Shown here: positions 28,476-60,470 of the stretch, in pieces
Numbering within the stretch: position 1 is the stretch's first letter
How the letters are laid out: each line of letters begins with the position of its first letter
NCBI GenBank assembly: GCA_964598145.1
Contig: CAZRAM010000002.1
Span: 403,795 to 467,794 of the forward strand
Direction of reading: 5' to 3'
Source of the DNA: an uncultured Pseudomonadales bacterium
GTDB taxonomy: Bacteria > Pseudomonadota > Gammaproteobacteria > Pseudomonadales > JAHEIH01
Length of the DNA: 64,000 nt
Made by a program: the position numbers and the translations under genes
Notes under the pieces: model-generated
The model's database searches: none
Told to the model about the DNA's origin: nothing
What the model saw: the letters and a program-made list of their open reading frames with translations, nothing else

Positions 28476-28514
28476 AAAAAACCCGAGGCTGGTGAACAGA
28501 CTCGGGTTTTTTTT
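28476..28514. terminator. bidirectional Rho-independent terminator between convergent kinase and LRR genes
   Basis: aaaaaacccgag ... ctcgggtttttttt, with A-run and T-run flanks serving both strands. Confidence 0.75.
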
Positions 28515-28534: not shown

Positions 28535-30022
28535 TTATCCGGCACAGTGATCTGGCAGGGTCACCTCGAGGTCGGGCAGAGCGGTTTGCAATGTGCTAAT
28601 AGACGCGCAGTCGACACTGCCTGCACCGGTCAGAATTAAGCTGTCCAGCAAGGTCAAATCCGCCAGTGCAGAAACGTCGGTTACCGCGGTGTTGCTCAGG
28701 TCCAGCGTTTTCAGATTGGTGTTATTAGCCAACGTGCTCACGTCGGTGACGGCGCTGTTGGCGGCCTCCAAAATGGTCAAAATTCCAAGGTCTGTCAGGG
28801 CGCTTAAATCGCTGCTCGCTGTATTGCTTATTACCAATGTTTTCAACAGGCTAAGGCCAGCAATACCCGTCAAATCACTGACGTTGGCCCCGTCGATAGC
28901 GAGGTAGTTCAACGCCGACATGTCGGCCAGGGCTGTCAAGTCGCTCACCGGGTTGTTCGACAAGCCCAGGGTCACTAAGCTGGTGTTGCCAGCGATAGCG
29001 GTAATATCCGAAATATTGTTGTTGCTCAAGTTGAGCAGAAGCAACGAGGTGATGTCTTGCAGGGCGCTTATGTCGGCGATGCTGTTATCACCGAGCAGTA
29101 ATTGGCGCAGCGAAGCGAGTTGGCTCAACACGCTGAGGTCGGTCAACTGGTTGCCAATCAAGTCTAAATAGGTGATCTGGGTAAGTTCAGTCAGCGCGCT
29201 GATGTCGCTTACTGTGTTGTTGCGCAGGCTCAAACGCGTCAGGTCTACCAGGGTCGACAAGCTGCTAATATCGCTGATGGCGTTGCTGTCGGCATCAAGG
29301 TTAACAAGACTCACCAAACCGGCCAAAGGTGATACATCGCTAACGGTATTGTTGTTGAAACTAATCGCGCCCAATGCCGTTGCATCGGCGAGTGGACTGA
29401 GGTCGCTCACGCTGTTGTTGTCGAACGACAGGACCGCCAACACGGTTTTGCCGGCAAGGGCGCTAATGTCACTGACTTGGTTGTCCTTCATTTGTACGAT
29501 TTCGAGCAAACTTAAGTCTGCCAAGGGGCTAATATCGGTCAGGTCCAAACCATCGATATACAATGCACTTAGTTGTGTCATATTGGCCACGACTGAAATG
29601 TCGCTCACTTGGGTATTTTCGACATTCAAAAATTCCAGCGCCGTGAAACCACTTAACGCAGAAATGTCGCTGACAGGGTTGGCACCCAGGTGCAACGCTG
29701 TGATCTGCGTCATGCTGGTCAAGGGCGTGATATCGGTAATGCTGTTGTTTTCAACGTTGAGTGAGGTAAGACCGGTCAGCGTATCGATACCTTCTAGTGA
29801 GATAACGCCTTTATTATTACAGGTCAGGCTAGTGATATCGCTGATATTTTTGTATTGGTAAACGATGGCAATATTGGTCAGGCAGGTATTGAGTGCCTCG
29901 TCGCTAACGTCAAACACCAAGTCGGTGGTGGTGGGCAGCAAATAAGGGTTGGTGGCTTTGCCAGAACAGGCCGCGAGGACAGCAAACGTAGCGGCCAGAA
30001 CAGCTGAGCGAAATAGGGTCAT
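28535..30022 (-). CDS. leucine-rich-repeat (internalin-type) lipoprotein
   Basis: ORF trimmed to ATG 30022, giving MTLFRSAVLAATFAVLAAC (canonical lipobox LAAC). About 18 tandem 22-residue LRRs follow, with Cys-containing N- and C-terminal caps. Confidence 0.85.
   Translation of the reverse strand: MTLFRSAVLAATFAVLAACSGKATNPYLLPTTTDLVFDVSDEALNTCLTNIAIVYQYKNISDITSLTCNNKGVISLEGIDTLTGLTSLNVENNSITDITPLTSMTQITALHLGANPVSDISALSGFTALEFLNVENTQVSDISVVANMTQLSALYIDGLDLTDISPLADLSLLEIVQMKDNQVSDISALAGKTVLAVLSFDNNSVSDLSPLADATALGAISFNNNTVSDVSPLAGLVSLVNLDADSNAISDISSLSTLVDLTRLSLRNNTVSDISALTELTQITYLDLIGNQLTDLSVLSQLASLRQLLLGDNSIADISALQDITSLLLLNLSNNNISDITAIAGNTSLVTLGLSNNPVSDLTALADMSALNYLAIDGANVSDLTGIAGLSLLKTLVISNTASSDLSALTDLGILTILEAANSAVTDVSTLANNTNLKTLDLSNTAVTDVSALADLTLLDSLILTGAGSVDCASISTLQTALPDLEVTLPDHCAG
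28625..29836 (-). repeat. about 18 tandem 66-nt coding repeats (22-aa LRR units)
   Basis: Units such as LTSLNVENNSITDITPLTSMTQ / ITALHLGANPVSDISALSGFTA / LEFLNVENTQVSDISVVANMTQ and so on. The consensus is LxxLxLxxNxVSDISxLAxLTx. Confidence 0.85.
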
Positions 30023-30238
30023 GTGCATTTCCATGGGTCGATTGTGATCGAGAAGAAAGGCATTGTGCCGTGATTCTGCTCGAGAAAAAAGCCCTATTTT
30101 AGGCGCTGCGAGCTGGCCTAGCAACGTGCTAAAAAAACGATGCCTACGAATGCATAGCGCAATTCACCGGTGCAAGGTTCGCAGACGGTGGCAAAGCAGG
30201 TATTATCCGCTGATAAATAACACAATAGGGATACATGA

Positions 30239-32338
30239 ATGTTCACCAAGAAGATGATAAGCATCGCGTTACTGGCTACCTCCGGCCTGTTGCTGAGCGC
30301 TTGTGATAAACCAGAACAAGTTGCAACCACCAGTGTGGCCGCGGTGGACGAAACCGCCCCCGTCAGCAGCGATTTATACAACGATTATTTGAATCGTCCA
30401 GTCACCGATGACATTTTCTACTTCGTACTTCCCGACCGCTTTGAAAATGGCGACCCAAGCAATGATGAAGGTTCTGCCACGATTGCCGAGTCACGCGGGG
30501 GTTTTGATCCCACCGATAAGGGCTACTACCACGGTGGTGACCTAGCGGGCCTGACGGCCAAATTGGACTACCTGCAGGAGATGGGTGTGACCGCCGTGTG
30601 GCTGACGCCCATTTTGCGCAATCAAGCCGTGCAAGGTGATAGCTCGGGCTATCACGGTTATTGGATCTTAGATTTCACCCAGATTGACCCCCACTTGGGT
30701 AGCAATGCCGAGCTAAATAAGTTGATCGATACCGCTCACAGCAAGGGTATGAAAGTGTTCTTCGACATCATCGTCAACCATACCGCTGATGTGATCAGCT
30801 ATCGCGAGTGCCACAACGAAGACGGTTCATTCCGCGACCCTGAATCGGTACTGTGCCCTTTCAAAACATACGATCAAATTACCTCGGGTGATACCTATTC
30901 CCCCTTCGTTGCCAAAGGCCGTGAAAATTTGAAAACCCCCGCCTGGCTGAACGATCCACAGTACTACAACAACCGCGGCGACAGCATCTGGGTTGGCGAA
31001 AGCGTGATCACCGGCGACTTTGTTGGTCTTGATGACTTGAACACCACCCATCCACGTGTGGTCCAGGGCATGATCGATATCTACAAGGACATTATCACCG
31101 AGTTCAAACCCGATGGATTCCGCATCGATACGGTTAAACACGTTGAGATGTCTTTCTGGGAGCAGTTTGACCCCGAAATTATGGCGCACGCCAAAAGTTT
31201 GGGGATTCCCCAGTTTCACATCTTTGGCGAAGTGGCGCAGGGTGACGCGGCCTTCTTGAGTCGCTACTCCACCATCGGCAAGATGCCAGCCACACTCGAT
31301 TTCCAACACTTCTACACCGGCATCGATGTGTTCGCTAAGGGCGCTAGCCCGCAAAAACTGGTGCAATTGGTCAACGATGACGATTACTACCGCGACCACG
31401 ATAGCGACGCCAAGCTGAAGTTCACGTTTATGAGTAACCACGACAATGGCCGCTTTGGTTACTTCCTCAATACCGAACAACCCGACAGCAGTGAACAAGA
31501 AAAGCTGCAGCGTTCATTGCTGAGTCACGCCTACATGTACTTCTCGATGGGTGTGCCAGTGGTGTTCTATGGCGATGAGCAGGGCTTTACAGGCGACGGC
31601 AATGACAAGGATGCCCGCGAGAATATGATGCCCTCGCTGGTGGCCAGTTATAACGACAACAATCTACTGGGCACCGATGCCACCACCGCCGAGGATAATT
31701 TTGATCAAGATCACCCCATCTACCGCGCACTGAGCAATTATGCCGATGTGTACAAGGCGCATCCCGCCCTGCGTCATGGGGCCCAGTACGTGCGTTACGC
31801 CAGTCAAAAGGCGGGCTTATTTGCCTTCTCACGGGTGATGCCAGAGGCGCGCGAAGAGTATTTAGTAGTGTTTAATACCTCCACTCAAAACCAATGGCAG
31901 ACGTTGTTGGCGACCGCCGATCGCTACGACCCCATCTTTGGTGCCGACAAAACCCTGCAGGCAGAGGACGGCAAAGTAACCGTGGCACTTGAAGGCTTGA
32001 GCTTTGCCATATATCGCGCGGCTAGTCCCGCACCGGCGGTTGAGGATCTGAGTATTGCTGTGGCCAGTGCTCGTAACGATGTTCGCTCACCATCTTTTGT
32101 GGCGATAGACTACGCGACGGTGGCAGAAGATGACTACGCGCTGCCCTTGCTGACAGTGACGACTGAAGTGCAAACCGCCGATGGCCATTTCGAATTGGTG
32201 GCCGTGGATGACAACGCGCCATTTACTGCCAAGTTACTGCGTAGCAAATTGAACGACGAGAAGGCGACGCTGCGGGTCACCGTGGATAACCATGCGGGGC
32301 AAACCGCTGTGCAGACTTTTGATATTGACGTTCGTTAA
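30239..32338 (+). CDS. GH13 alpha-amylase-family lipoprotein
   Basis: 699 aa with lipobox LLLSAC. GH13 conserved regions DIIVNHTA, GFRIDTVKHVE, HIFGEV and FMSNHD. Confidence 0.9.
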   Translation: MFTKKMISIALLATSGLLLSACDKPEQVATTSVAAVDETAPVSSDLYNDYLNRPVTDDIFYFVLPDRFENGDPSNDEGSATIAESRGGFDPTDKGYYHGGDLAGLTAKLDYLQEMGVTAVWLTPILRNQAVQGDSSGYHGYWILDFTQIDPHLGSNAELNKLIDTAHSKGMKVFFDIIVNHTADVISYRECHNEDGSFRDPESVLCPFKTYDQITSGDTYSPFVAKGRENLKTPAWLNDPQYYNNRGDSIWVGESVITGDFVGLDDLNTTHPRVVQGMIDIYKDIITEFKPDGFRIDTVKHVEMSFWEQFDPEIMAHAKSLGIPQFHIFGEVAQGDAAFLSRYSTIGKMPATLDFQHFYTGIDVFAKGASPQKLVQLVNDDDYYRDHDSDAKLKFTFMSNHDNGRFGYFLNTEQPDSSEQEKLQRSLLSHAYMYFSMGVPVVFYGDEQGFTGDGNDKDARENMMPSLVASYNDNNLLGTDATTAEDNFDQDHPIYRALSNYADVYKAHPALRHGAQYVRYASQKAGLFAFSRVMPEAREEYLVVFNTSTQNQWQTLLATADRYDPIFGADKTLQAEDGKVTVALEGLSFAIYRAASPAPAVEDLSIAVASARNDVRSPSFVAIDYATVAEDDYALPLLTVTTEVQTADGHFELVAVDDNAPFTAKLLRSKLNDEKATLRVTVDNHAGQTAVQTFDIDVR

Positions 32339-33531: not shown

Positions 33532-36500
33532 ATGACCACGCGCGCTTATCCGACATATTATCTCGAAACGATTAGCTCTGAACAAAGTGCTGAAGCTTTC
33601 GCTGATCATATTTTGTCCCTACGCAGTTATCTGGTCCGAATTATGGTGACTTTTACCCTGTTTGTGACAGCATGGCGGATAAATAGTGGCTTAGCTCCCT
33701 ATGCAGCCACGATGGCCACATCCTGGTTCATTAATGTTTCTGCCGTAACGTGTCTTTTTGCTTCTTTTAGCTGGCCTTTTGGTCATCCCATGAAAAATCT
33801 ATACGTTCGCTATGGGTTTTGTCTGCTCTGGTTAGTTGCCTCCTTGATGTTAATAAGCAGTGCTGGCTATGCGCCGCTATGGACTTTTTGCGCGATTTTG
33901 TGTTGCCTAATTATTGTTGGTGATGACCCCGATCACCACCAAGCATGGCGACGCTGGTTTGGAACCTTACTCGCATTTGTTGCCATCATAATTGCTTTTG
34001 TCATCCTGGCGAACGATTGGCCAGTAGATAATCCAAAGATCTTTAACCGTTGGCAAATCGCTTTTGCGGCAATTGTTGCGGTGATCTCATACGCTTGGCA
34101 TGGCATTTTTTCAAATCAAAAGTTGCTACATAATGCCGCTGACCAATCGGCCCAATGGCATCAAATGGTGCTGAGGCTGAGAAAGCATTATGCGGCCTTC
34201 GATCCACTCTTTTTGATCTTGGTAGTTACTGTCCTCGTTTTCTCACTTTCTATCAGTTCACTCATTACGTCTCCTGAGCAATCGATTTTTGTCACCATGC
34301 TAACTCAACACAAGCCGTTTAGTGTGTTGCTCTTGGTTGTGTTTGTGGCAATATTCATAGCGGCGACACGAGAGCATTGGATGAAGGCAATTTCACCATG
34401 GGTGTTTGCGGCAAGCTTCGGCCTTGCTGGTTTTATGATTTTCAACGTTGGGGTAAATCAAAATGCAGGCAACTTCTTTGCTCCTATGGGATTTTTATAT
34501 TTCCTACAGCCAAACGCCTCCCGCCAGCGCTGGTTGGTGCCTGGGCTCTACGCGTGTTTGTTATTAGTCGCGCAGAGCAAACAATTTGATGAGTATTCCC
34601 TAGAGTTTTTGTTGATTTGCTGGAGCAGTTTTTTTGCCTTTGGCGCTGTTTTCGATCAGCTGAGAATGCAACACCTCAAGCAGCTAGCGGTGTTAGAACA
34701 CTTGGATGAAGGCGTCGACGATGCATCCATTCCGGCTGCTGACGTTGATAAGATTGATCAATGGATTTTGTCAAACAAGTGGCTTGGTATTACGTCGCTT
34801 GCGTGTGTCATCATCGCCTTTGCTATGTACAGCTCCCAGCAATCGCTTATCAATACCGAGATCGATGGGTTGCATGGGCTTGTTGAAAAAGAATTGGACT
34901 ATGAAATTCGCCGCCAAACCATGCAGTTAAATTTTTTGGCGAAAGATGATGACAACGATATGTTTGACGCGTTGACTCGCCAATCAGTGTGGTGTGCAGT
35001 TTGGCGGTCATCTGAGCCTTCGGGGGTGCCAGCAGTAAGCAATTGCCCATTGGATATTGTGTGGCTGCGACAATTGTTTGATGGTGATTTAAGCACTACA
35101 TTGCCGATTTTTTTTGTTAAGGACCATCGAGTCTATATGGTGCTGCGTTCAGACCTCGATGATGCCTTATCAGTCTATGGTGTGCTCGATGTGGCGGTTT
35201 GGATAAAAGCTGCTTTACACGTCTCTCTTTTTAATCGTCCTTTTCAAAAGCAATTACTGTTTGACGATGCCATATCCGATCTTCGCTGGTCGATAGATAT
35301 AGAAACCTTGCAATTGTCATCCCTTGCGCCGTCAGTTAATTTGGATTCCTCTTGGTCGGTGCAAATACGGCCAAGCGATGAAATCAGTTCTAACTTTTGG
35401 CTTGAAACGGGGCGTTTGCTGATTATTTTTTGTTTCTTCATTGCCGGCCTACGCCATTTTTATGTAAGTCGTTACAATGTTACGCGCCTGTCCACTGATG
35501 TTGCCCAGCAAGGGCGTCAGTTGGAAGAAAATAACCGACTTAGACAAGAAATCGCCGACGCACTCTACCGCGCTGAAGAGGCCAATAAGTCTAAGGATAA
35601 TTTTCTTGGCATGATCGGGCATGAAATTCGCACCCCTCTGAATAGTGTGATGGGTATGCTGCAAGCGTTGAACTTGAAACCCTTGTCCGAGGACGCTAAA
35701 CACTTAGTTAAAAATGCCTACAGTGCCTCCACAATGTTGCTCAATCTGGTCAATGACGTACTCGATTACAATAAAATGAAGTCGGGCACACTGACACTGG
35801 CTAAGCATACTTTTGCTCTGGGGCCTTTAATTGATTTGTATCATCAGCAGTACGCGACGGCGGCATCGCAAAAAGGCCTTAATTTTAAGTGTGACATCAT
35901 AGGTGATAGAGATGTTTTCGTACTAGGCGATGATATTCGGCTGGGTCAGGTACTGACCAATTTGCTGTCAAATGCCGTCAAGTTTACTGAGAGCGGTGGC
36001 ATTTTCCTGCATGTTGAAATCACTGTAGACGGCGATGACGTAACGTGTTTATTTAAAGTTATGGATACTGGTATCGGTATCGATCAGAAGTTCCTTCCCC
36101 TGGTGTTTGAACCGTTTAAACAATACGACATGAGCATGAAGCGTGAGTACCGCGGTTCAGGGCTAGGTTTGTCCATTGTTAAACATCTTGCAGAAATGAT
36201 GCATGGACACGTTGATGTGTTCTCGAGGGTGGGGCGAGGCAGTACGTTTGTCTTCAGGGTGACACTGGCGCGAGCGTTGGAACAGCCTTCTATCGCTTCC
36301 GCAAACGAGTTGGACGTTCAAGTCCCAAAAGCCATCTATAAGGGCAAGCGTATTTTGGTGGTCGATGATGATCCTCTTAACCTTGAGGTTATTAAGGAGT
36401 TATTAGAGCCATTTGGGGTGACGGTGGATTGTGCTCAAAACTCCCGCCAGTCGTTAGCTTTTGTTAAGCAACACGCGAGTGATTACCAATTTGTATTGAT

Positions 36501-36705
36501 GGACCACCAGATGCCCGATATGACTGGCTTGGAACAAACCTATCGCCTGAGAGAGACCTACGACAGCAATACGTTACCGATCATTTTGCTGACCGCTGAC
36601 TTGTCGGAAAAAGTCTTGGATCTAGCGGAAAAGGCGGGTACTAACGAGTCGGTATCCAAGCCCATCACCTTGTCTAATCTACGTCGCTTACTAGATACCT
36701 ATTAA
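33532..36705 (+). CDS. large polytopic hybrid sensor histidine kinase/response regulator
   Basis: 1057 aa. About 10 hydrophobic helices occupy the first ~400 aa, and a further ~190-aa segment is bracketed by two helices. H-box GHEIRTPLNSV (His codon 35620-35622), N box LLSNAVKFT, G1 DTGIGI, G2 GSGLGLSI and a receiver (ILVVDDDPLN...FVLMDHQMPDMTG...SKP). Confidence 0.85.
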   Translation: MTTRAYPTYYLETISSEQSAEAFADHILSLRSYLVRIMVTFTLFVTAWRINSGLAPYAATMATSWFINVSAVTCLFASFSWPFGHPMKNLYVRYGFCLLWLVASLMLISSAGYAPLWTFCAILCCLIIVGDDPDHHQAWRRWFGTLLAFVAIIIAFVILANDWPVDNPKIFNRWQIAFAAIVAVISYAWHGIFSNQKLLHNAADQSAQWHQMVLRLRKHYAAFDPLFLILVVTVLVFSLSISSLITSPEQSIFVTMLTQHKPFSVLLLVVFVAIFIAATREHWMKAISPWVFAASFGLAGFMIFNVGVNQNAGNFFAPMGFLYFLQPNASRQRWLVPGLYACLLLVAQSKQFDEYSLEFLLICWSSFFAFGAVFDQLRMQHLKQLAVLEHLDEGVDDASIPAADVDKIDQWILSNKWLGITSLACVIIAFAMYSSQQSLINTEIDGLHGLVEKELDYEIRRQTMQLNFLAKDDDNDMFDALTRQSVWCAVWRSSEPSGVPAVSNCPLDIVWLRQLFDGDLSTTLPIFFVKDHRVYMVLRSDLDDALSVYGVLDVAVWIKAALHVSLFNRPFQKQLLFDDAISDLRWSIDIETLQLSSLAPSVNLDSSWSVQIRPSDEISSNFWLETGRLLIIFCFFIAGLRHFYVSRYNVTRLSTDVAQQGRQLEENNRLRQEIADALYRAEEANKSKDNFLGMIGHEIRTPLNSVMGMLQALNLKPLSEDAKHLVKNAYSASTMLLNLVNDVLDYNKMKSGTLTLAKHTFALGPLIDLYHQQYATAASQKGLNFKCDIIGDRDVFVLGDDIRLGQVLTNLLSNAVKFTESGGIFLHVEITVDGDDVTCLFKVMDTGIGIDQKFLPLVFEPFKQYDMSMKREYRGSGLGLSIVKHLAEMMHGHVDVFSRVGRGSTFVFRVTLARALEQPSIASANELDVQVPKAIYKGKRILVVDDDPLNLEVIKELLEPFGVTVDCAQNSRQSLAFVKQHASDYQFVLMDHQMPDMTGLEQTYRLRETYDSNTLPIILLTADLSEKVLDLAEKAGTNESVSKPITLSNLRRLLDTY

Positions 36706-37144: not shown

Positions 37145-37573
37145 ATGTTTTTTGTTTCCGCGGCGTTGATCGGCATCATCGCTGTCATTCCCGCCATCAT
37201 GTGGGCGCGTCACCAACGCACTGCAGTGCTGGTAAAAGTCGCTGGATGGGGATTGATTGCCGCGGCATCTATCTATGTCATCGCGGCCTTGGGTCGTGCC
37301 GACGGGTTGTGGAAAATCATCGAGTTGATGGGGGTGGGGGCTTTTGGTTGTTGTTATTGGCTCGCCAAAAAACGTCCGCTGTGGGCATTGGCCTGGGGTT
37401 GGGGTTTGCATCCCCTGTGGGATATTTTTCTGCACTACCTTGGCCCCGGTAGCTACATCATACCGGCCTGGTACAGCATCGCTTGCGCGGTGTTTGACGT
37501 GGTCGTGGCAGCGTATTTATTTTGGCGCGACTATCAACAGCGTCACCCCGTCGAAATCGTGCGCCTTTGGTAA
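37145..37573 (+). CDS. hypothetical 4-TM membrane protein
   Basis: 142 aa with four clear hydrophobic helices and a Trp-rich loop (LWALAWGWGLHPLWD). No family recognised. The 3' end overlaps the convergent DUF2063 gene by 31 nt. Confidence 0.5.
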   Translation: MFFVSAALIGIIAVIPAIMWARHQRTAVLVKVAGWGLIAAASIYVIAALGRADGLWKIIELMGVGAFGCCYWLAKKRPLWALAWGWGLHPLWDIFLHYLGPGSYIIPAWYSIACAVFDVVVAAYLFWRDYQQRHPVEIVRLW

Positions 37574-38298
37574 CCCAACACGATCTGATCTTTGTGTAGT
37601 TGTGCCAAAATACTTTCAACGTGGGGCCAAAGACTGGCGGCATCGGTATTGGGTAAGCGCTCACAAAGTGATTGGCAGGCGGCTGCCACCGACGGGTTGC
37701 GTTGAAGATCTTGCAAGAGTTGTAAGGTGGTGGCATTGATTGCATTGAAAGCCACCTCGTGTGAGGCTTTGCGATACACCGCAACACCAAACCATTCTCC
37801 TGTCGTTGCTGGAATGTCTGCACCGGGGCTGAACTGGTGCACAGGTCTAGGGTAGAGCCCAAAGTGCACCGTGGGGTTCAAAATCACGTCAATTTGATCT
37901 TGGTCCTGTTCGTCTAGCGGCTCGCTTTCACGTAAAACCACCTCGCCGGTATGTTGATAGGCCGCCAACTCCAGCCATTCGTAGTGCATTAAATCGTGCA
38001 ACCATTCAGGGACATCATCGCGCTCTGCTATCCAGTCTAGAAAGATCTCAGGAATGTCTTTAAACAGCGGCGAGTGGTGTTCTCCCGCGGCAAAAAATGC
38101 CCTACACAGGGTATTCCATTTCTCTTCACCGAGAATGGCTGACGCTATTGGAAAGCACTGGTCGATGAAACTAGTCAGGTTGTTGTATACCAGGCGGCGA
38201 TACACTTGGAAACGTGATTCGGCCACGCCATGTGGCGCCTCGCTGTTGTTTCTTAGCGCGGCGGCGATGTCGCGCTGATAGTCAGTTAAATGAGTCAT
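37543..38298 (-). CDS. DUF2063-family protein (BufC/HvfC-type RiPP maturation partner)
   Basis: 251 aa. The N-terminal pattern (QRDIAAALRN...RFQVYRRLVYNNLTSFIDQCFP) recalls DUF2063. Its ATG overlaps the DUF692 stop (ATGA at 38295-38298). Confidence 0.75.
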   Translation of the reverse strand: MTHLTDYQRDIAAALRNNSEAPHGVAESRFQVYRRLVYNNLTSFIDQCFPIASAILGEEKWNTLCRAFFAAGEHHSPLFKDIPEIFLDWIAERDDVPEWLHDLMHYEWLELAAYQHTGEVVLRESEPLDEQDQDQIDVILNPTVHFGLYPRPVHQFSPGADIPATTGEWFGVAVYRKASHEVAFNAINATTLQLLQDLQRNPSVAAACQSLCERLPNTDAASLWPHVESILAQLHKDQIVLGYQRRTISTG

Positions 38299-39140
38299 GG
38301 TGCCAGCTTGGCTGTCTTTGCCGTGACCTGCTGCTGCAGATGCTTGATGTATTGAATCTCGGGCAGTAATTCAGCCAGCGGTGGAATGTTAAAGTCTCGC
38401 TCCAAGAGTGTGGGGAAGATACCAAACTGCTGGTAGCTGAAGTCGAGAAGTCGCCATACCTCATCAACCACCTCGGCGCCATGGGTGTCGATGACTAAAT
38501 CCTCTGCCTCACGGAAGTGACCAGCGGTATGCATGTAGACTATCCGTTCAGTGGGTAATGCTTGTAAGTACTGGTAGGGATCAAAGCCAAAGTTCACGCT
38601 GTTAACGAAAACGTTATTGATATCGAGGTGTAAGTCACAGTCGGCGGTTTCAAGAACTGCGCGAATAAAGCTCGCTTCATCCATGCTGGAGTGGGGGGCG
38701 GCCATGTAAAACGACGTGTTTTCCAAGGCGATGCGCCGTCCAAGGATGTGTTGCACACGTTGCACTCGCTGGGCGACATGTTCCACCGCCTGCTCGGTAA
38801 AGGGCAGCGGCAATAAGTCGTATAGGTGGCCGTTAGCGCTACACCAAGACAGGTGCTCACTGTAAAGGGCGATGTGGTGTTTATCTAAAAAGCGAGCGAT
38901 ATCTTCAGCGAAGGCTTCATCGAGCGGATCACTACTGCCAATCGATAGTGACAAGCCATGGGCGACAAAGGGGCGTTGTTGCAGTAGCGCGTGTAGTTGC
39001 TGTCGCTTGCGGCCGCCGTGCGCCATCCAATTTTCAGGGGCAATTTCTAAAAAGTCGATGGCGTCCGGGACGCCATCGTCGATGAGGGTGGCGAGGTGCT
39101 CCTGACGAAGTCCCAAGCCACTGCCCATTGGGTAGGTCAT
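38295..39140 (-). CDS. DUF692-family multinuclear non-heme iron oxidase (MNIO; MbnB/BufB/HvfB-like RiPP maturase)
   Basis: 281 aa. The blocks GLGLRQEHL...DFLEIAPENW...HGLSLSIGS...YSEHLSW...ALENTSFY...HLDINNVFVNSVNFG...YMHTAGH are the TIM-barrel DUF692 pattern. It starts 3 nt after the precursor stop. Confidence 0.88.
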   Translation of the reverse strand: MTYPMGSGLGLRQEHLATLIDDGVPDAIDFLEIAPENWMAHGGRKRQQLHALLQQRPFVAHGLSLSIGSSDPLDEAFAEDIARFLDKHHIALYSEHLSWCSANGHLYDLLPLPFTEQAVEHVAQRVQRVQHILGRRIALENTSFYMAAPHSSMDEASFIRAVLETADCDLHLDINNVFVNSVNFGFDPYQYLQALPTERIVYMHTAGHFREAEDLVIDTHGAEVVDEVWRLLDFSYQQFGIFPTLLERDFNIPPLAELLPEIQYIKHLQQQVTAKTAKLAP

Positions 39141-47638: not shown

Positions 47639-49933
47639 ATGCGACGCTGGGCCGTCTGCTTTTTATCATTACTGGCGCCGTTGGCCAGTGCTAATCACCA
47701 CGATGACGTTATTCAGATTCCATTACTGGAGGGTAGTGTTCGTGTCGACGGTGTGTTGGATGATCCTATCTGGCAACGCGCGACCAAAGTGACCATGGAC
47801 ATTGTTTCTCGTCCATACCTAAATACACCCTCGCCGATTGAAACCACCGCCTTTGTCTTCGAGGATGGCGAGACGTTGTTTGTTGCGTTCGACGCGCGCG
47901 ACCCTGACACTCAGCAGATTCGCGCTCTTTATCGCGATCGCGACAGTAATTTTAGTGACGATATGGTGGGCATTAAGCTAGACACCCACGCCGATGGCCG
48001 CTTGGCTTATCAATTTTTTGCCAATCCCTACGGCATACAAGCGGATGCCATTGAAAACCAAATGACCAACAGCGAGAGTGCCGCCTGGGATGCAATTTGG
48101 AAAACAGGAGGGCGTATTCACGACCATGGTTACGTGGTAGAAATGGCAATACCGCTCAATATCTTAAAGTTTGAAGAGAGCGATGGCGCCAAACGCTGGG
48201 CGATGGAGTTTGTGCGATTTTACCCGCGCAATGAAACCCTACGTATTTCTAATTTGCCATGGGATCGCAACAACGCTTGCTTCCTATGCCAAATGGGACC
48301 TGTGCAAGGGTTTGCTACGGCCGAACAGGGGAATAACTTGGCGCTAGTACCTTCTTTGGTGTTGGGCAGTGGGGAATCGCGCGATCCTTATGACAACCCT
48401 GAATGGCAGGGCAATAACGTCAGTGAAGTGAGCTTTGATGCCAAGTGGAGTCCCACACCAGAAATAGGGTTATTGGCCACCTATAATCCAGACTTTTCGC
48501 AGGTTGAAGCCGATGTGGCACAGCTGAGCGTTAATAATAACTTTGCGTTGTTTTTCCCTGAAAAGCGTACCTTTTTCACCGAAAACGCCGAGTACTTCGA
48601 TTCGCTTTATCGCTTTGTCTACACCCGTAATATCCAAGATCCCGATGTTGGATTGAAATTGACTGGCCGCAAAGGCGCCCACACCATGGGATTATTTGCC
48701 GCAGATGATACCTCGACACTGATCTTTGTGCCCGGCAACTTGGGTTCTAGCTTGGTGGAGTACGAGCGCCCTTCAAATAATTTAGTGGCGCGCTATCGCT
48801 ACGATGTCTCGAAGGATTTCTCGGTGGGCTTGCTGTCGACCCAGCGCCGAGCGACGGACTACAGCAATAGCCTCAATGCCTTGGATATGAAATACCAGTG
48901 GTCGTCGTTCGACGTGTTTAGGGCACAATTTGCACACAGTGAAAGCGAGTATCCGCGCGATCTATATACCCAGTTGTGCGATGTGGATTGTCTTTCAAAT
49001 GACCTCAATGAGGGGGTGTTGCGCCTTCGTCGCGATGACGTGCTGAGTGATACAGCTTACAACCTTGACTATCGCCATGAGCGGCGAGACTGGATGGTAC
49101 GCGCTCAACACCTAAAGAGTGGAGCGGATTTTCGTAGCGATCTAGGCTTTGAAAACTTTATCGATCGCACCCGTTCATTGCTCGGTGGGCACTGGCGCTG
49201 GTTTAGCAAGAACAGTTGGTGGAATACGGCAACGCTTTACGCCGATTGGGATATTACCCACAGCGAAGCCGGTGAATTATTAGAAGTGGAACGCGAGGCG
49301 CGGCTTTCGGTTATTGGCAGCTGGCAGACAGAGGCAACAGTGGGCGTGGTTGAAAGAGAAATAGCCGGCTTGCGACTCGACAATAGCACCCTGCAAATTG
49401 CCGGCAACAGCAATCGTTTTGGTGAACGAGGCGCGTTTGTCGACCTGCAGATGTCGCCTTCAATGCTCTTTACCGCCGGTTTGTACGCAAGTTATTCACC
49501 TGATAAGGTGGATTTTGCCAATGATCGCGTGGGTACTCAACGTACTTTGGCACCCTGGTTTGATTTGAATTTGGGTAAGCACTTGCAAATAAAATTGCGC
49601 CATACCTTCAGCGAGTTAGATGCGGAGGGTGCCAATGTATTTAGTGCTAATCTCACCGATTTACGCATGACCTACCAGTTCGATGCCAAACAGTTTTTGC
49701 GACTGATTGCGGTGAATTCTGATATTAAAAGAAACCAGGACAATTACCTTGAGGCAGTCGATGCTCGCAGCCGAAATTTAAGCCTACAACTACTGTATTC
49801 CTACAAGGTCAATCCGCTGACTAAATTCTTTATTGGCTATTCGCAAGCGGGTTTCCGCGATGATACGTTTACCCAATTAACCGATACCGACCGCTCGGTG
49901 TTTATGAAGATTAGCTACGCTTGGCAGCAGTAA
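47639..49933 (+). CDS. CBM9-like + DUF5916 outer-membrane protein
   Basis: 764 aa with a signal peptide. The N-terminal block VRVDGVLDDPIWQRA...LFVAFDARDP...RDSNFSDDMVGIKLDTHADGRLAYQFFANPYG is the CBM9-like pattern that precedes DUF5916 beta-barrels. The C-terminal part has alternating beta-strand character. Confidence 0.7.
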   Translation: MRRWAVCFLSLLAPLASANHHDDVIQIPLLEGSVRVDGVLDDPIWQRATKVTMDIVSRPYLNTPSPIETTAFVFEDGETLFVAFDARDPDTQQIRALYRDRDSNFSDDMVGIKLDTHADGRLAYQFFANPYGIQADAIENQMTNSESAAWDAIWKTGGRIHDHGYVVEMAIPLNILKFEESDGAKRWAMEFVRFYPRNETLRISNLPWDRNNACFLCQMGPVQGFATAEQGNNLALVPSLVLGSGESRDPYDNPEWQGNNVSEVSFDAKWSPTPEIGLLATYNPDFSQVEADVAQLSVNNNFALFFPEKRTFFTENAEYFDSLYRFVYTRNIQDPDVGLKLTGRKGAHTMGLFAADDTSTLIFVPGNLGSSLVEYERPSNNLVARYRYDVSKDFSVGLLSTQRRATDYSNSLNALDMKYQWSSFDVFRAQFAHSESEYPRDLYTQLCDVDCLSNDLNEGVLRLRRDDVLSDTAYNLDYRHERRDWMVRAQHLKSGADFRSDLGFENFIDRTRSLLGGHWRWFSKNSWWNTATLYADWDITHSEAGELLEVEREARLSVIGSWQTEATVGVVEREIAGLRLDNSTLQIAGNSNRFGERGAFVDLQMSPSMLFTAGLYASYSPDKVDFANDRVGTQRTLAPWFDLNLGKHLQIKLRHTFSELDAEGANVFSANLTDLRMTYQFDAKQFLRLIAVNSDIKRNQDNYLEAVDARSRNLSLQLLYSYKVNPLTKFFIGYSQAGFRDDTFTQLTDTDRSVFMKISYAWQQ

Positions 49934-57031: not shown

Positions 57032-58828
57032 CTACCAGCGGTAGTCGTAACTCAGACTGGCGCTGCGGCCCATGCCCGGAGTACCGGGGTACATTTGAAA
57101 ATCATCATCGCTGAGGTTGTCGACCAATAGGGAAAATTGGTGCTGTACGCTTGGCGTCCAAACGGTTGAAAGTCGCGCGAAAAACGCTTCTCGTGACGAG
57201 CGACGCAAGGTGTTGGGGGCCTGTTTGCGATATTCGGTATCCAGTTGAAGCGCCACTTGGCGACTCACCTGCCACTGTGCCGCTAAAGTGCTGCGCACCT
57301 TGGCGTAGTTGAGGGCATAGTAACTCGCATCGACCAGGTCAGTGGCGTATTGGAAATCCTTGTTAAGCAGCGTGACACCAACGCGAAGCCAGAACGCATC
57401 GCGCTGTAAGCTGGCTTGAAGCTGAGCCCCACTTACATCGTTGTCCATGGCGTTGGCTTGTCGAGCGTAGGGCGATTGGCTGGCATAGGTCCAGTCGGCC
57501 ACATCCTGCTCACCGCGCCAGAAAATAGACGCTTCTAGCTGCCCATTTGAGTAGGCCTTCTTTACACCTAGTTCCACTTGCTCCGCGCGCTCGCGCGATA
57601 ACTCGGGATTACCACCGAAAAGCCCAGATGTACCGGATTGCAGGGCGGTATAGCCGGGTAGTTGGCTAGTGCGGGCATAATCGACAAAGGCTGCCCAGAG
57701 TGAAGACGCGGGCTGCCATTCGAAGTAGGCATAGGGTTGCAGGGTATCGCTGTCACGGTTGCTGATGTCGCAGCTGAGACCGATATCGTATTGCAAGGTC
57801 CCATCGCTAAACACTTGTTGCTGGCGCACACCTAGGCTGCCTGTTAGATACTGGCGGCTTGTGAAGTTGCCGTGGGTCAGATCTGTGGACGAGACCAGTT
57901 TGTCGCCTGTCCACTGTGCGCGGTAGTGGAACATATCGCGCGCGCCTTCAATCGCCAAACCATAGCTCGCAGTCTCGTGTTCAAATGCGCCGGCCACGCC
58001 GGTTTCAAGGGTGCGGCGGTCAAAGTCGTAGTTATCGACTACGCGGCGGTAGTAGCCGCCCACTCGGGTATCACCTTGCTGGTGATTGAATAACATCAGG
58101 TCGGTATCGGTGTGGTCAGTTTCAGGCAGGCTGGCAAATCCAGTATAGGCGCCGGGCCAGCCGAAAAACTGGTGCTGGCTGGCTAGGATCAGAGCGCTTT
58201 GACTCTCGCCCGTGTCGCGCTGCACAGCTAAGTTAATGCGCTGGAAGTGGTGGTCGCCATTGTCGATGGTGCCATCGCCTACGCTTCGTTCCGCGGCAAC
58301 GGCGATTGTGTAGTGGCCGTCAAGGTTTTGCGAATACAGTGCTGATTGGCTATTAAATCGGTCACTACCTGCACTTAGGCCTACGCGGCGGGTGGCTTCG
58401 TTAATATCGAGATCATAGCGCAGGGTAGCGACGGTGGCGTTAAAGCCCTCTATTGCGTTTTGCGCACCAGTTAACACACCGCCAAAGGTCAGCAGTTCGG
58501 GGCTGATGGGCAGGTTGGCCGTGTAGTGTCCGGTTTGCGGATCCATCAAGACCACTGCACCGACTTTGACCGAGGTGCTTTCAAACATGCTACCGCGCAC
58601 GGTGATATCGGCTTGGCCTTCGGCTAGACCTCGGCTGTAGATTTCGACTTGTGGATCGTAAGCCAAGCTTGTGGCAATGGAGGCAAGGCTCGTGGCTGCC
58701 TGGCTGTTGGCTACACGACCGGCTTGTACGGTTACTTCTTCAAGGGTGTTGGCCAGAAGGGTAGAGGGGGCAAAAAGACAACTGCTGACGAAGGCGGCCA
58801 GCAGGGGGCGTCGAGCGTAGGCTGACAT
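57032..58828 (-). CDS. TonB-dependent outer-membrane receptor (small, 598 aa)
   Basis: Signal peptide, a plug start LEEVTVQAGR and a terminal ...SLSYDYRW aromatic residue. A Fur box lies upstream. Confidence 0.85.
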   Translation of the reverse strand: MSAYARRPLLAAFVSSCLFAPSTLLANTLEEVTVQAGRVANSQAATSLASIATSLAYDPQVEIYSRGLAEGQADITVRGSMFESTSVKVGAVVLMDPQTGHYTANLPISPELLTFGGVLTGAQNAIEGFNATVATLRYDLDINEATRRVGLSAGSDRFNSQSALYSQNLDGHYTIAVAAERSVGDGTIDNGDHHFQRINLAVQRDTGESQSALILASQHQFFGWPGAYTGFASLPETDHTDTDLMLFNHQQGDTRVGGYYRRVVDNYDFDRRTLETGVAGAFEHETASYGLAIEGARDMFHYRAQWTGDKLVSSTDLTHGNFTSRQYLTGSLGVRQQQVFSDGTLQYDIGLSCDISNRDSDTLQPYAYFEWQPASSLWAAFVDYARTSQLPGYTALQSGTSGLFGGNPELSRERAEQVELGVKKAYSNGQLEASIFWRGEQDVADWTYASQSPYARQANAMDNDVSGAQLQASLQRDAFWLRVGVTLLNKDFQYATDLVDASYYALNYAKVRSTLAAQWQVSRQVALQLDTEYRKQAPNTLRRSSREAFFARLSTVWTPSVQHQFSLLVDNLSDDDFQMYPGTPGMGRSASLSYDYRW

Positions 58829-58853
58829 GGTGAAACTCCGCGCTAAAAAAGGC

Positions 58854-58872
58854 GCAGATGATAATCATTTGC
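58854..58872. promoter_or_regulatory. Fur box upstream of the TonB-dependent receptor
   Basis: gcagATGATAATCATTtgc contains 12 contiguous matches to the core of GATAATGATAATCATTATC, about 14/19 overall. It lies 26-44 nt upstream of the receptor ATG. Confidence 0.65.
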
Positions 58873-59045
58873 AATAATAACTCAACCGCATTGGCGGCAT
58901 TTTTAGTCTGATTTCGTATGTATCAAAATAATCGAGCAATATTTACGCAATTAATCGCTGAATAGTTTACTGGCGACCTTGAGCGCTAGCGCTGAGGCAG
59001 TAAGAACAATTATCTCCCACCCCAGCTTATTCGATTAAACGTAAC

Positions 59046-60440: not shown

Positions 60441-60470
60441 GGCATGACCCTTATTGTTATTGCTTTGAAT

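What the first reader, a model, noticed from the sequence alone, without database searches (positions are those of the whole stretch)
28535..30022. Internalin-type 22-residue LRR lipoprotein in a gammaproteobacterial chromosome
Seen: the protein has a canonical lipobox (VLAAC) and a Cys-containing N-cap. About 18 uninterrupted 22-residue repeats follow, with consensus LxxLxLxxNxVSDISxLAxLTx, and then a Cys-containing C-cap (VDCASIS...PDHCAG). The 66-nt periodicity is strong enough to create a spurious 229-aa repetitive antisense ORF (29172-29861). Established: the 22-residue LRR with Asn followed by x-[IV]-[ST]-D-[IL] is the Listeria internalin subtype, which typically mediates protein-protein adhesion to host receptors. 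I believe it is uncommon among free-living gammaproteobacteria, though I did not check this. Inference: this is a surface-anchored binding scaffold, for example for attachment to a eukaryotic or algal surface or for organising surface enzymes. Its divergent neighbour is a GH13 lipoprotein.
Basis: partly seen in the sequence, partly recalled or inferred. Interest (0 to 1): 0.55.

Follow-up and report, generated by a model that had tools for sequence, protein, structure and literature searches.

The report
Leucine-rich-repeat lipoprotein, binding partner unknown
This is a real, well-conserved gene for a lipid-anchored, horseshoe-shaped leucine-rich-repeat binding protein in an uncultured marine relative of Saccharophagus and Teredinibacter; its repeat type is very common in bacteria, so it is a fairly ordinary new member of a known kind whose partner is still unknown.

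Summary
Window 28535-30022 (-) encodes a 495-aa protein with a lipobox (LAAC, Cys19). It has a helical N-cap, 18 uninterrupted 22-residue repeats (residues 82-477) and a short C-cap. AlphaFold2 gives a confident solenoid (pLDDT 93.4), and Listeria InlA is the best solved match.

It is not an internalin. It lacks the Ig-like inter-repeat domain and scores far below the NCBIfam internalin cut-offs. The repeats belong to the widespread SDS22-like class: the first 106 mature residues alone hit 30,333 cluster representatives.

Orthologues (99%, 90% and 71% identity) keep exactly 495 aa, the same neighbours and all four non-lipid Cys. dN/dS is 0.07 and codon usage is native. There is therefore no sign of repeat-number variation or recent transfer.

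The concave face is as conserved as the hydrophobic core. It carries all 11 exposed basic or aromatic residues, centred on repeats 9-12. Cys pairs in both caps covary in other proteins, which suggests disulfide staples.

The gene has its own promoter and terminator. Nothing beyond adjacency links it to the GH13 lipoprotein.

Most likely it is an envelope-anchored, concave-face binding scaffold. Surface exposure and ligand are untested. Interest is low.

The parts
28535..30022 (-). Coding sequence of the 495-aa LRR lipoprotein, including the stop codon
   Evidence: ORF and translation. The same 495-aa gene is called in independent assemblies. dN/dS is 0.066 against the 90% orthologue.
29966..30022 (-). 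Signal peptide and lipobox (residues 1-19; L-A-A-C, lipidated Cys19)
   Evidence: Read directly from the sequence. Conserved in L082, L085 and L088. The model is disordered over residues 1-28 apart from the signal-peptide helix.
29918..29965 (-). Flexible tether (residues 20-35, SGKATNPYLLPTTTDL)
   Evidence: pLDDT is below 50 up to residue 28 and rises only after about residue 35; DSSP finds no secondary structure.
29780..29917 (-). N-terminal cap (residues 36-81): helix 42-55 plus a degenerate repeat 0, with Cys47 and Cys68
   Evidence: AF2 secondary structure. Alignment to the caps of homologues. The Cys pair covaries in other proteins: 51 C/C against 1 C/non-C.
28658..29779 (-). LRR repeats 1-17 (residues 82-455), 22 residues each, SDS22-like class
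   Evidence: Register table. One beta-strand every 22 residues, from 87-89 to 439-441. Pfam LRR_4, E = 1.1e-45.
28988..29251 (-). Repeats 9-12 (residues 258-345): the most conserved stretch and candidate ligand-binding patch (R263, R267, Y285, D287, R306, Q307)
   Evidence: 17-18 of 22 residues are invariant across three orthologue lineages. All three Arg of the mature protein lie here, on concave positions.
28538..28657 (-). Degenerate repeat 18 plus C-terminal cap (residues 456-495): helix 472-481 and final strand 486-488, with Cys472 and Cys493
   Evidence: AF2 model. Cys conserved in the orthologues. A C..P..C motif follows 20 of 57 Cys-capped modules against 9 of 673 others.
30096..30124 (-). 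Probable sigma-70 promoter of the LRR gene (-35 TTGCTA, 17 nt, -10 TAAAAT)
   Evidence: Consensus scan. Both hexamers are invariant in L082 and L088. The transcription start is inferred, not shown.
30023..30095 (-). Highly conserved leader of the LRR gene, with the palindrome TCGAT-N4-ATCGA at 30038-30051
   Evidence: About 97% identical to L082 although dS is about 1 in the flanking genes, and largely identical in L088. The palindrome is unique in the window. No Rfam match.
28476..28512 (.). Bidirectional intrinsic terminator between the LRR gene and the convergent hybrid histidine kinase
   Evidence: A GC-rich hairpin flanked by A and U tracts; -19.7 kcal/mol, z = -5.5.
29172..29861 (+). Antisense 229-aa ORF: a by-product, not a gene
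   Evidence: Only 126 aa in the 71% orthologue. Selection acts on the sense frame.
30239..32338 (+). Divergent neighbour: GH13 alpha-amylase-family lipoprotein (lipobox LSAC, Asp at +2). Context only; no functional link is shown.
   Evidence: Pfam Alpha-amylase, E = 1.6e-63. N-terminus. Own promoter-like site at 30178-30206.

Best explanation
The gene is a stand-alone transcription unit. It encodes an exported, non-enzymatic binding protein.

Route and anchoring: after Sec export, signal peptidase II cleaves before Cys19, which is lipidated. No Asp follows the Cys, so the default destination is the outer membrane (inferred from the E. coli sorting rule). A disordered tether of about 16 residues then holds a rigid, curved solenoid of 20 beta-strands.

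Caps: the solenoid ends are closed by a helical N-cap and a helix-strand C-cap. Each cap is probably stapled by a disulfide, Cys47-Cys68 and Cys472-Cys493 (inferred from covariation and from the oxidising compartment).

Binding: the protein binds one conserved macromolecular ligand, most likely a protein, through its concave beta-sheet. The site centres on repeats 9-12 (R263, R267, Y285, D287, R306, Q307). This is the binding mode that InlA uses for E-cadherin.

Location: I judge it most likely to face outward as a receptor or adhesin-type scaffold. The same four-Cys-capped module recurs in giant multi-module proteins that look extracellular.

Status of each step: shown are gene reality, solenoid fold, repeat class, selection pattern and transcription signals. 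Inferred are lipidation, disulfides and concave-face binding. Unknown are orientation in the envelope and the ligand's identity.
For: - Lipobox and signal peptide are conserved.
- The AF2 model has pLDDT 93.4 and pTM 0.88, with strands every 22 residues.
- InlA, InlF, the Roco LRR and SHOC2 are the top structural matches.
- Purifying selection: dN/dS 0.066 at dS about 1, with an invariant length of 495 aa in lineages at 99%, 90% and 71% identity.
- Exposed concave positions vary in 29% of cells, against 24% for core positions and 50% for convex and lateral positions (Fisher p = 0.0014). Repeats 9-12 are the most conserved.
- All 11 exposed R/K/H/Y/F residues of the LRR region sit on concave positions and none on 162 convex positions (p = 8e-6).
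- N-cap Cys pair: 51 C/C against 1 C/non-C among cap matches. The C-cap C..P..C motif is enriched after Cys-type N-caps, 20/57 against 9/673.
- The same capped module occurs in the lipoproteins P0296 and L096 and in giant multi-module proteins.
- Conserved promoter and own terminator.
Against: - No experiment or computation here shows lipidation, disulfides, localisation or any ligand.
- A conserved concave face fits an endogenous periplasmic partner as well as an external one.
- Gammaproteobacterial lipoproteins face the periplasm by default unless a dedicated exporter moves them.
- The conservation analysis rests on only three lineages.
- The Cys covariation counts repeated modules within a few dozen proteins, so they are not independent events.
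Confidence: 0.5

Rival explanations
1. Periplasm-facing outer-membrane lipoprotein. The LRR arc acts as a scaffold or regulator for an endogenous envelope protein, such as a periplasmic enzyme or a sensor domain, rather than for anything outside the cell.
For: - Default Lol sorting puts gammaproteobacterial lipoproteins on the periplasmic face (established knowledge).
- The concave face is under strong purifying rather than diversifying selection, as expected for a slowly co-evolving self partner.
- No surface-lipoprotein exporter gene was seen among the window ORFs scanned.
Against: - Homologous four-Cys modules occur in 1,000-3,000-aa multi-module proteins that look extracellular.
- SDS22-like LRR proteins characterised in bacteria are mostly surface-bound or secreted (PMC3105044).
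- No candidate partner is encoded in an operon with it, because the gene is monocistronic.
Confidence: 0.27
2. Dedicated partner of the divergently transcribed GH13 lipoprotein. It would either tether or organise the amylase on the envelope, or bind and inhibit it as plant LRR PGIPs inhibit polygalacturonases.
For: - Head-to-head arrangement with a GH13 lipoprotein across 216 bp, kept in every orthologous locus down to 71% identity.
- Other alpha-glucan genes lie in the window: GH31 with PA14, an MFS sugar transporter and a TonB-dependent receptor.
Against: - The whole 20-kb neighbourhood (DinB, histidine kinases, DUF429, UmuDC) is collinear in the same loci, so kept adjacency carries little information.
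- The promoters are separate, and only the LRR-proximal half of the spacer is conserved.
- GH13 homologues at 51-58% identity in Catenovulum, Psychrosphaera and Allohahella have no LRR gene within 8 kb.
- No known amylase system uses an LRR partner (my own knowledge).
Confidence: 0.1
3. A true internalin-family virulence or invasion factor, acquired by horizontal transfer from Firmicutes and used to bind an animal host receptor.
For: InlA is the best solved match by sequence and by fold. NCBIfam internalin models give the top, though sub-threshold, hits.
Against: - No Ig-like inter-repeat domain and no LPXTG or GW anchor.
- Scores lie 4-7 fold below the curated cut-offs.
- GC3 is 0.653 and codon-usage distance 0.122, both typical of the window.
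- Stable synteny in an uncultured Cellvibrionales-like lineage.
- Identity to InlA (about 33-36%) is no higher than to hundreds of environmental LRR proteins.
Confidence: 0.03

Closest known systems
Listeria monocytogenes internalin A (and InlF, InlH, InlB): the internalin domain
   Same: - 22-residue SDS22-like repeats with the N-x-[IV]-[ST]-D-[IL] signature.
- An uninterrupted right-handed solenoid of similar length (InlA has 15 repeats).
- Best sequence match (E = 7e-84) and best fold match (E = 2.6e-29, TM 0.64-0.70) among solved structures.
- A helical N-cap that aligns with the InlA cap region.
- The expected concave-face binding mode.
   Different: - No Ig-like inter-repeat domain fused to the last repeat; the internalin domain is defined as cap + LRR + Ig-like domain (PMC3986869). 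A short helix-strand cap takes its place.
- Lipoprotein anchor in a Gram-negative envelope instead of LPXTG or GW modules.
- Four Cys in the caps.
- NCBIfam scores far below the cut-offs.
- The host is an uncultured marine polysaccharide-degrader lineage, not a pathogen.
Streptococcal LRR lipoproteins Slr and Blr
   Same: Lipobox-anchored proteins with a horseshoe of internalin-like LRRs. Slr binds collagen I and is modelled on InlA (PMC3105044). This is the clearest precedent for the 'LRR lipoprotein' architecture.
   Different: - Slr carries an N-terminal half with four histidine-triad motifs, and its LRRs lie in the C-terminal half (PMC3105044). Here the LRRs fill the whole mature protein, which has only two His.
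- Gram-positive plasma-membrane anchor against a Gram-negative envelope.
- No disulfide-type caps are described for Slr.
Leptospira LRR lipoproteins (LIC10831, LIC11098, LIC12759; LIC_11051 family)
   Same: LRR-only envelope proteins of a diderm bacterium. They are structural matches (E about 1e-17), and there is a weak NCBIfam hit to the LIC_11051 fibronectin-binding family.
   Different: Only 18% identity. The NCBIfam score is 59.9 bits against a cut-off of 1000. The Foldseek identity is much lower than to InlA.
SDS22-like LRR class in general (PP1 regulatory subunit 7/SDS22, LRR domain of the Chlorobium tepidum Roco protein)
   Same: The same repeat class, length and beta/3-10 unit (PMC2946307). 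There are strong sequence and fold matches: Roco at E = 4.7e-58 and 4.9e-28. This shows that the repeat type is not specific to internalins.
   Different: Those proteins are cytoplasmic and lack a signal peptide, a lipobox and cap cysteines.
Cys-flanked LRR ectodomains of eukaryotes (LRRNT/LRRCT caps: decorin-type SLRPs, VLRs, LRR receptors)
   Same: An analogous design: an extracellular solenoid whose two ends are closed by disulfide-containing caps.
   Different: There is no sequence relationship; Pfam LRRNT and LRRCT do not hit.

Membership tests
SDS22-like class of leucine-rich repeats (Pfam LRR_4) | Tandem repeats of 21-23 residues with LxxLxLxxN followed by x-I-x-x-I-x-x-L, forming beta-strand/3-10 units (PMC2946307) | tested here: met
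   There are 18 repeats of exactly 22 residues with consensus LTxLxxLxxxNNxVSDISxLAx. LRR_4 scores E = 1.1e-45 at 153 bits against a cut-off of 27. The model has one strand per 22 residues followed by short helical turns.
Bacterial lipoproteins (signal peptidase II substrates) | N-terminal signal peptide ending in a lipobox [LVI][ASTVI][GAS]C, with a basic n-region and an uncharged h-region | tested here: met
   MTLFR-SAVLAATFAV-LAAC, with Cys19. Conserved in orthologues at 90% and 71% identity.
Bacterial lipoproteins (signal peptidase II substrates) | Actual diacylglyceryl modification and membrane attachment | not testable with these tools
   This needs globomycin sensitivity, palmitate labelling or mass spectrometry.
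Listeria internalin family (internalin domain) | An Ig-like inter-repeat domain (Pfam LRR_adjacent) fused directly to the last LRR | tested here: not met
   The protein ends 18 residues after repeat 18, with a helix and one strand. Pfam gives no LRR_adjacent hit at E <= 0.01. The definition is taken from PMC3986869.
Listeria internalin family (internalin domain) | An internalin-type helical N-terminal cap (Pfam Internalin_N) | tested here: inconclusive
   Pfam gives no Internalin_N hit. However, helix 42-55 and repeat 0 align with the InlA cap region in the MAFFT alignment, and the model has a helical cap.
Listeria internalin family (internalin domain) | Score above the curated NCBIfam cut-offs for internalin_A or InlH/InlC2 | tested here: not met
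   211.9 bits against 1600, and 230.9 bits against 1050.
Listeria internalin family (internalin domain) | Gram-positive surface attachment (LPXTG sorting signal, GW modules) or secretion | tested here: not met
   The C-terminus is ...LPDHCAG, with no LPXTG; a lipobox is present instead. Pfam finds no Gram_pos_anchor or GW domain.
Slr/Blr streptococcal LRR lipoproteins | An N-terminal region with histidine-triad motifs ahead of C-terminal LRRs (PMC3105044) | tested here: not met
   There are only two His in the mature protein and no domain ahead of the LRRs apart from a 16-residue tether and the cap.
Type III-secreted 'Bacterial' class LRR effectors (YopM, IpaH, SspH) | 20-22-residue repeats with LxxLPxLPxx variable segments, and no Sec signal | tested here: not met
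   The variable segment is VSDISxLA without the Pro motif. A Sec/SPII signal is present. YopM is only a weak match, E = 3.1e-11.
Eukaryote-type LRRNT/LRRCT-capped ectodomains | Pfam LRRNT and LRRCT Cys-cluster caps | tested here: not met
   Neither model is hit at E <= 0.01. The Cys pairs occupy positions that are Ala in the ordinary bacterial cap.
Four-Cys-capped bacterial LRR module (informal grouping seen here) | A Cys pair in the N-cap (helix plus first strand) and a C-x(10-32)-P-x-x-C motif in the C-cap, flanking SDS22-like repeats | tested here: met
   Cys47, Cys68, Cys472 and Cys493 are conserved in all orthologues. The same arrangement occurs in P0296, P0297, L096 and others. Covariation is 51:1, with enrichment of 20/57 against 9/673. 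Disulfide formation itself is not testable with these tools.

The most novel reading that the evidence does not exclude
The protein is the minimal, single-module member of an undescribed family of disulfide-stapled (four-Cys-capped) LRR modules in marine bacteria. In this lineage it is the dedicated partner of the divergently transcribed GH13 lipoprotein. It would either dock the amylase on the cell envelope or act as a PGIP-like LRR regulator of a glycoside hydrolase. Such a role has not been described for any bacterial LRR protein.
Probability: 0.07. Interest if true: 0.6.

Novelty: new member of a known kind. Interest (0 to 1): 0.2.

Why it matters
As it stands it matters little. It adds one more SDS22-like LRR binding protein with an unknown partner to the tens of thousands already in environmental bacteria, and it shows that resemblance to InlA does not make a protein an internalin.

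Two points have modest value.
- The case is clean for study. The protein is small and single-domain, its repeat number does not vary, and its chemically bland surface carries one conserved Arg/Tyr-rich concave patch. That makes it a convenient target for finding what LRR lipoproteins bind in marine polysaccharide degraders related to Saccharophagus and Teredinibacter.
- The covarying Cys pairs in both caps point to a disulfide-stapled variant of the bacterial LRR module. This could interest protein engineers who use LRR scaffolds.

If the LRR-GH13 partnership were real, it would be a new way for bacteria to organise or control a glycoside hydrolase.

Tried and rejected
- **DNA-level tandem repeats.** Tandem Repeats Finder reports none and repeat units are 45% identical on average. 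A slippage-prone contingency locus is rejected. In line with this, every orthologue is exactly 495 aa.
- **Recent horizontal transfer.** GC3 and codon usage are typical of the window. Rejected.
- **Structured RNA or riboswitch in the conserved leader.** No Rfam hit at E <= 1. The predicted long-range pairing of AAAAUAGGG with the start-codon region (z = -3.3) uses bases of the conserved -10 box, which would lie upstream of the transcript start, so I do not rely on it. A GGA hairpin at the ribosome-binding site, read by eye, is not kept in L088.
- **Regulon search.** The leader palindrome and the adjacent conserved 16-mer occur nowhere else in the window.
- **Cap-specific homologues.** A word-indexed search with residues 1-125 found nothing. 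The exhaustive search with residues 20-125 was swamped by giant multi-LRR proteins whose many repeats add up. It did, however, yield the Cys-capped modules that were then analysed locally.
- **Source names.** None are held for those proteins, and no paper mentions the assembly or run accessions.
- **The afdb50 fold library** was unavailable, so no organism-labelled structural census was possible.
The model therefore rests on 32 distant homologues.
- **The target protein and its orthologues** are missing from the collection behind search for homologous proteins. Orthologues had to be reached through neighbouring genes and contig look-ups.
- **Paralogues.** None in the window.
- **Diversifying selection on the binding face.** Rejected, because the concave positions are among the most conserved.
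Full report

Yes. The minus strand of window 28535-30022 encodes a 495-aa protein starting MTLFRSAVLAATFAVLAAC. The longest ORF runs up to a TTG at 30124. Independent gene calls in other assemblies use the ATG at 30022.

The N-terminus has a basic residue (R5), an uncharged hydrophobic stretch and the lipobox L-A-A-C, with Cys19.

From residue 82 to 477 the sequence falls into 18 rows of exactly 22 residues with no insertion or deletion. The consensus is LTxLxxLxxxNNxVSDISxLAx, and Asp is invariant at position 16.

The periodicity is far above background:
- Protein self-identity is 0.37-0.39 at lags 22 and 44, against a mean of 0.10.
- DNA self-identity is 0.465 at lag 66, against 0.284 for other multiples of three.

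Pfam LRR_4 matches at E = 1.1e-45. Besides the lipobox Cys there are four cysteines: 47 and 68 before the repeats, 472 and 493 after them.

The 229-aa antisense ORF at 29172-29861 exists, but it is only 126 aa in an orthologue of 71% identity. The sense frame stays open and is under purifying selection. It is a by-product. Tandem Repeats Finder sees no DNA repeat, and the units are only 45% identical at DNA level. I therefore attribute the open antisense frame to skewed codon content more than to the 66-nt period; this is an inference.

The divergent neighbour (30239-32338) is a GH13 protein with lipobox LSAC.

**2. Where does it come from?**

The window is ordinary chromosome. It carries TruB, PNPase, RecN-like, DnaK, DnaJ, DapB, glycerol catabolism genes and UmuDC.

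DnaK is 93-100% identical to proteins from unnamed metagenome bins labelled Pseudomonadales or Pseudomonadota. It is 85-87% identical to DnaK of Aestuariicella, Teredinibacter, Saccharophagus and Sessilibacter. The source is therefore an uncultured marine lineage close to Cellvibrionaceae, a group known for polysaccharide degradation (my own knowledge). 'Gammaproteobacterial chromosome' is right.

**3. Structure.**

AlphaFold2 was run on an alignment of 33 sequences. It gives mean pLDDT 93.4 and pTM 0.88. The model shows:
- residues 1-28 at low confidence (signal peptide and tether);
- a helix at 42-55;
- one short strand at 65-67;
- 18 strands spaced exactly 22 residues apart (87-89 to 461-463), each followed by a short helical turn;
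- a helix at 472-481 and a last strand at 486-488.

Foldseek against the PDB puts InlA first (E = 2.6e-29, 33% identity, TM 0.62-0.70). Next come the LRR domain of the Chlorobium tepidum Roco protein, InlF, SHOC2 and the Leptospira LRR proteins. The PDB sequence search agrees: InlA 7e-84, Roco 4.7e-58, InlH, InlB and PP1 regulatory subunit 7.

**4. Is it an internalin?**

It works like one, but it is not a member. The internalin domain is defined as a helical cap, the LRRs and a fused Ig-like domain (PMC3986869).
- Here the chain ends 18 residues after repeat 18.
- Pfam finds neither LRR_adjacent nor Internalin_N.
- The NCBIfam internalin_H and internalin_A models score 231 and 212 bits against cut-offs of 1050 and 1600.
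- There is no LPXTG or GW anchor.

The repeat type is the SDS22-like class (PMC2946307), which internalins share with cytoplasmic eukaryotic and bacterial proteins.

The closest architectural precedent is the streptococcal LRR lipoprotein Slr, which binds collagen I. Slr, however, has a histidine-triad N-terminal half that is absent here (PMC3105044).

**5. How common is it?**

The class is extremely common.
- The full-length search scored 4,605 proteins at E <= 1e-5 among only 8,000 candidates. The hits came from many phyla and carried many accessory domains. InlA ranked eighth, at an identity (36%) no better than its neighbours.
- The first 106 mature residues alone match 30,333 cluster representatives at E <= 1e-3, and 1,013 at E <= 1e-30.

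I could not make a census by taxon, because the libraries carry few names and the AlphaFold-database fold library was unavailable. 'Uncommon in free-living Gammaproteobacteria' therefore remains unverified. Nothing in the data suggests that the repeat type is unusual.

The orthologue group itself is narrow. I recovered it only from this lineage, at 100%, 98.8%, 89.9% and 71% identity. Everything else is at or below about 45%.

**6. Evolutionary behaviour.**

All orthologues are exactly 495 aa with the same 18 repeats, so repeat number does not vary. Against the 90% orthologue, dN/dS is 0.066 at dS about 1. That is similar to the flanking kinase (0.059) and somewhat higher than GH13 (0.022). 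GC3 (0.653) and codon usage are typical of the window. This is a stable, native, functional gene. It is neither a contingency locus nor a recent import.

**7. Where is the functional surface?**

I classed the 22 positions as core (1, 4, 7, 9, 12, 14, 17, 20), exposed concave (5, 6, 8, 10, 11) or convex and lateral (the rest). This classification comes from the standard LxxLxLxxN geometry.

Across three lineages, the fraction of cells that vary is:

| Position class | Cells that vary |
|---|---|
| Core | 24% |
| Exposed concave | 29% |
| Convex and lateral | 50% |

Concave against convex gives Fisher p = 0.0014.

Repeats 9-12 (residues 258-345) are the most conserved, with 17-18 of 22 residues invariant.

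The mature protein is chemically bland: pI 4.05, 60% L/S/T/A/D, and no Trp. Yet all 11 exposed Arg, Lys, His, Tyr and Phe residues of the repeat region lie on concave positions, and none lies on the 162 convex positions (p = 8e-6). The only three Arg of the mature protein (R263, R267, R306) sit together with Y285, D287 and Q307 on repeats 9-11, and all are invariant.

This pattern is expected for one conserved ligand bound in the arc, as in InlA/E-cadherin. It argues against an arms-race surface.

**8. The caps.**

Cys47 and Cys68 occupy positions that are usually Ala in the ordinary bacterial cap: '...LRAAI...' and '...LxA...'.

It gave 51 unique matches with Cys at both positions, 1 with Cys at the first only, and 15 with Cys at the second only; many of those listed have a gap at the first position.

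Modules with the Cys-type N-cap are followed by a C-x(10-32)-P-x-x-C motif in 20 of 57 cases, against 9 of 673 for other modules. Examples:
- P0297 has four complete [Cys-cap, LRRs, Cys-cap] modules.
- P0296 is a lipoprotein with FN3-like (read by eye) repeats followed by one such module.
- L096 is a lipoprotein with an extra N-terminal domain followed by one such module.

I infer two cap-stapling disulfides, which is reasonable for a protein exported to an oxidising compartment. I also infer that the window protein is the minimal single-module form of a recurring module. The counts include several modules per protein and are not independent events. Cys-Cys distances could not be measured because the coordinates are not exposed.

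**9. Transcription unit and neighbours.**

A promoter-like site lies at 30096-30124 (-35 TTGCTA, 17 nt, -10 TAAAAT). Both hexamers are invariant in the 90% and 71% orthologues. The roughly 70-nt leader is almost unchanged, although synonymous sites in the flanking genes are saturated. The GH13-proximal half of the 216-bp spacer is much less conserved and has its own promoter-like site.

Downstream, a strong symmetric hairpin with A and U tracts (28476-28512, z = -5.5) separates the gene from the convergent hybrid histidine kinase. The LRR gene is therefore monocistronic.

Adjacency to GH13 is kept in all orthologous loci, but so is the entire neighbourhood: DinB, two hybrid kinases, DUF429 and UmuDC. 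GH13 homologues of 51-58% identity in Catenovulum, Psychrosphaera and Allohahella have no LRR gene within 8 kb. The evidence for a functional link is therefore weak.

**10. Most likely mechanism.**

It is a lipid-anchored binding scaffold of the outer membrane. Sorting to the outer membrane is inferred from the absence of Asp after the lipid Cys, following the E. coli rule. A short tether holds a rigid, disulfide-capped arc that captures one conserved macromolecule on its concave face around repeats 9-12.

I lean towards an outward-facing receptor or adhesin role, because the same module builds giant, evidently extracellular proteins and because characterised bacterial relatives are surface proteins. 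A periplasm-facing scaffold for an endogenous partner is a serious rival (0.27). A dedicated GH13 partner is possible but poorly supported (0.10). A transferred internalin virulence factor is essentially excluded (0.03).

**11. Verdict.**

This is a new member of a known kind: an SDS22-like LRR lipoprotein. Two modest extras emerged, the Cys-stapled caps and a sharply defined conserved concave patch. Interest is 0.2.

Noticed in passing
window 30023-30125 (minus-strand sense): The promoter and roughly 70-nt leader of the LRR gene are about 97% identical in the 90% orthologue and largely identical in the 71% orthologue, although synonymous sites nearby are saturated (dS about 1). The region contains the palindrome TCGAT-N4-ATCGA (30038-30051), unique in the window, and two pyrimidine-rich direct repeats, CTTTYTTCTCGA (read by eye). 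No Rfam family matches. It is probably a regulatory site of unknown kind.
   Followed up: partly
window 28476-28512: A symmetric GC-rich hairpin flanked by A and U tracts (-19.7 kcal/mol, z = -5.5) lies between the convergent LRR gene and the hybrid histidine kinase gene. It looks like a bidirectional intrinsic terminator. The simple terminator scan missed it.
   Followed up: yes
window 30239-32338 (+); L082 6001-8100; L088 3711-5801: The GH13 lipoprotein has Asp directly after the lipid Cys (LSAC-D) in the window and in L082, and Glu in L088. Asp at +2 is the inner-membrane retention signal in E. coli and occurs in the type II-secreted pullulanase PulA (my own knowledge). Apart from three Alteromonadales-type genera and Allohahella, its best genomic homologues are actinobacterial (Streptomyces, 43-45% identity).
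   Followed up: no
window 33532-36705 (+): This hybrid histidine kinase (1057 aa) has GC 0.457 and GC3 0.49, against 0.537 and about 0.63 for the rest of the window. It is the most atypical composition among the 29 ORFs compared. Its counterpart in L082 is 1093 aa. It may be a replaced or transferred gene.
   Followed up: no
proteins P0296, P0297, P0270, P0224, P0189, P0294; locus L096 215-1717: Four-Cys-capped SDS22-like LRR modules recur, up to several per chain, in proteins of 1,000-2,800 aa from unnamed metagenome assemblies. They also occur in two other lipoproteins: P0296, with FN3-like (read by eye) repeats, and L096, with an extra N-terminal domain of about 110 residues. I did not find this cap variant described in the papers searched.
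   Followed up: partly
window 47639-49933 and 57032-63326: Further carbohydrate-related genes are present: a CBM9-like/DUF5916 protein, a TonB-dependent receptor, an MFS sugar transporter and a GH31 alpha-glucosidase-type enzyme with a PA14 insert. Together with GH13 they suggest alpha-glucan use, but they lie 17-30 kb from the LRR gene.
   Followed up: no
window 28535-30022 and its orthologues: The LRR protein and its orthologues are absent from the protein collection behind search for homologous proteins and the listing of cluster members. Their neighbours from the same contigs are present, and the contig index does hold the gene. Homology lists for this protein therefore lack its closest relatives.
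   Followed up: yes
window 37543-39140 (-); L001 883-2480: An MbnB/TglH/ChrH-family (DUF692) gene is paired with an HvfC-type gene next to a small ORF. This arrangement is typical of heavy-metal-binding or RiPP-like peptide loci (my own knowledge).
   Followed up: no
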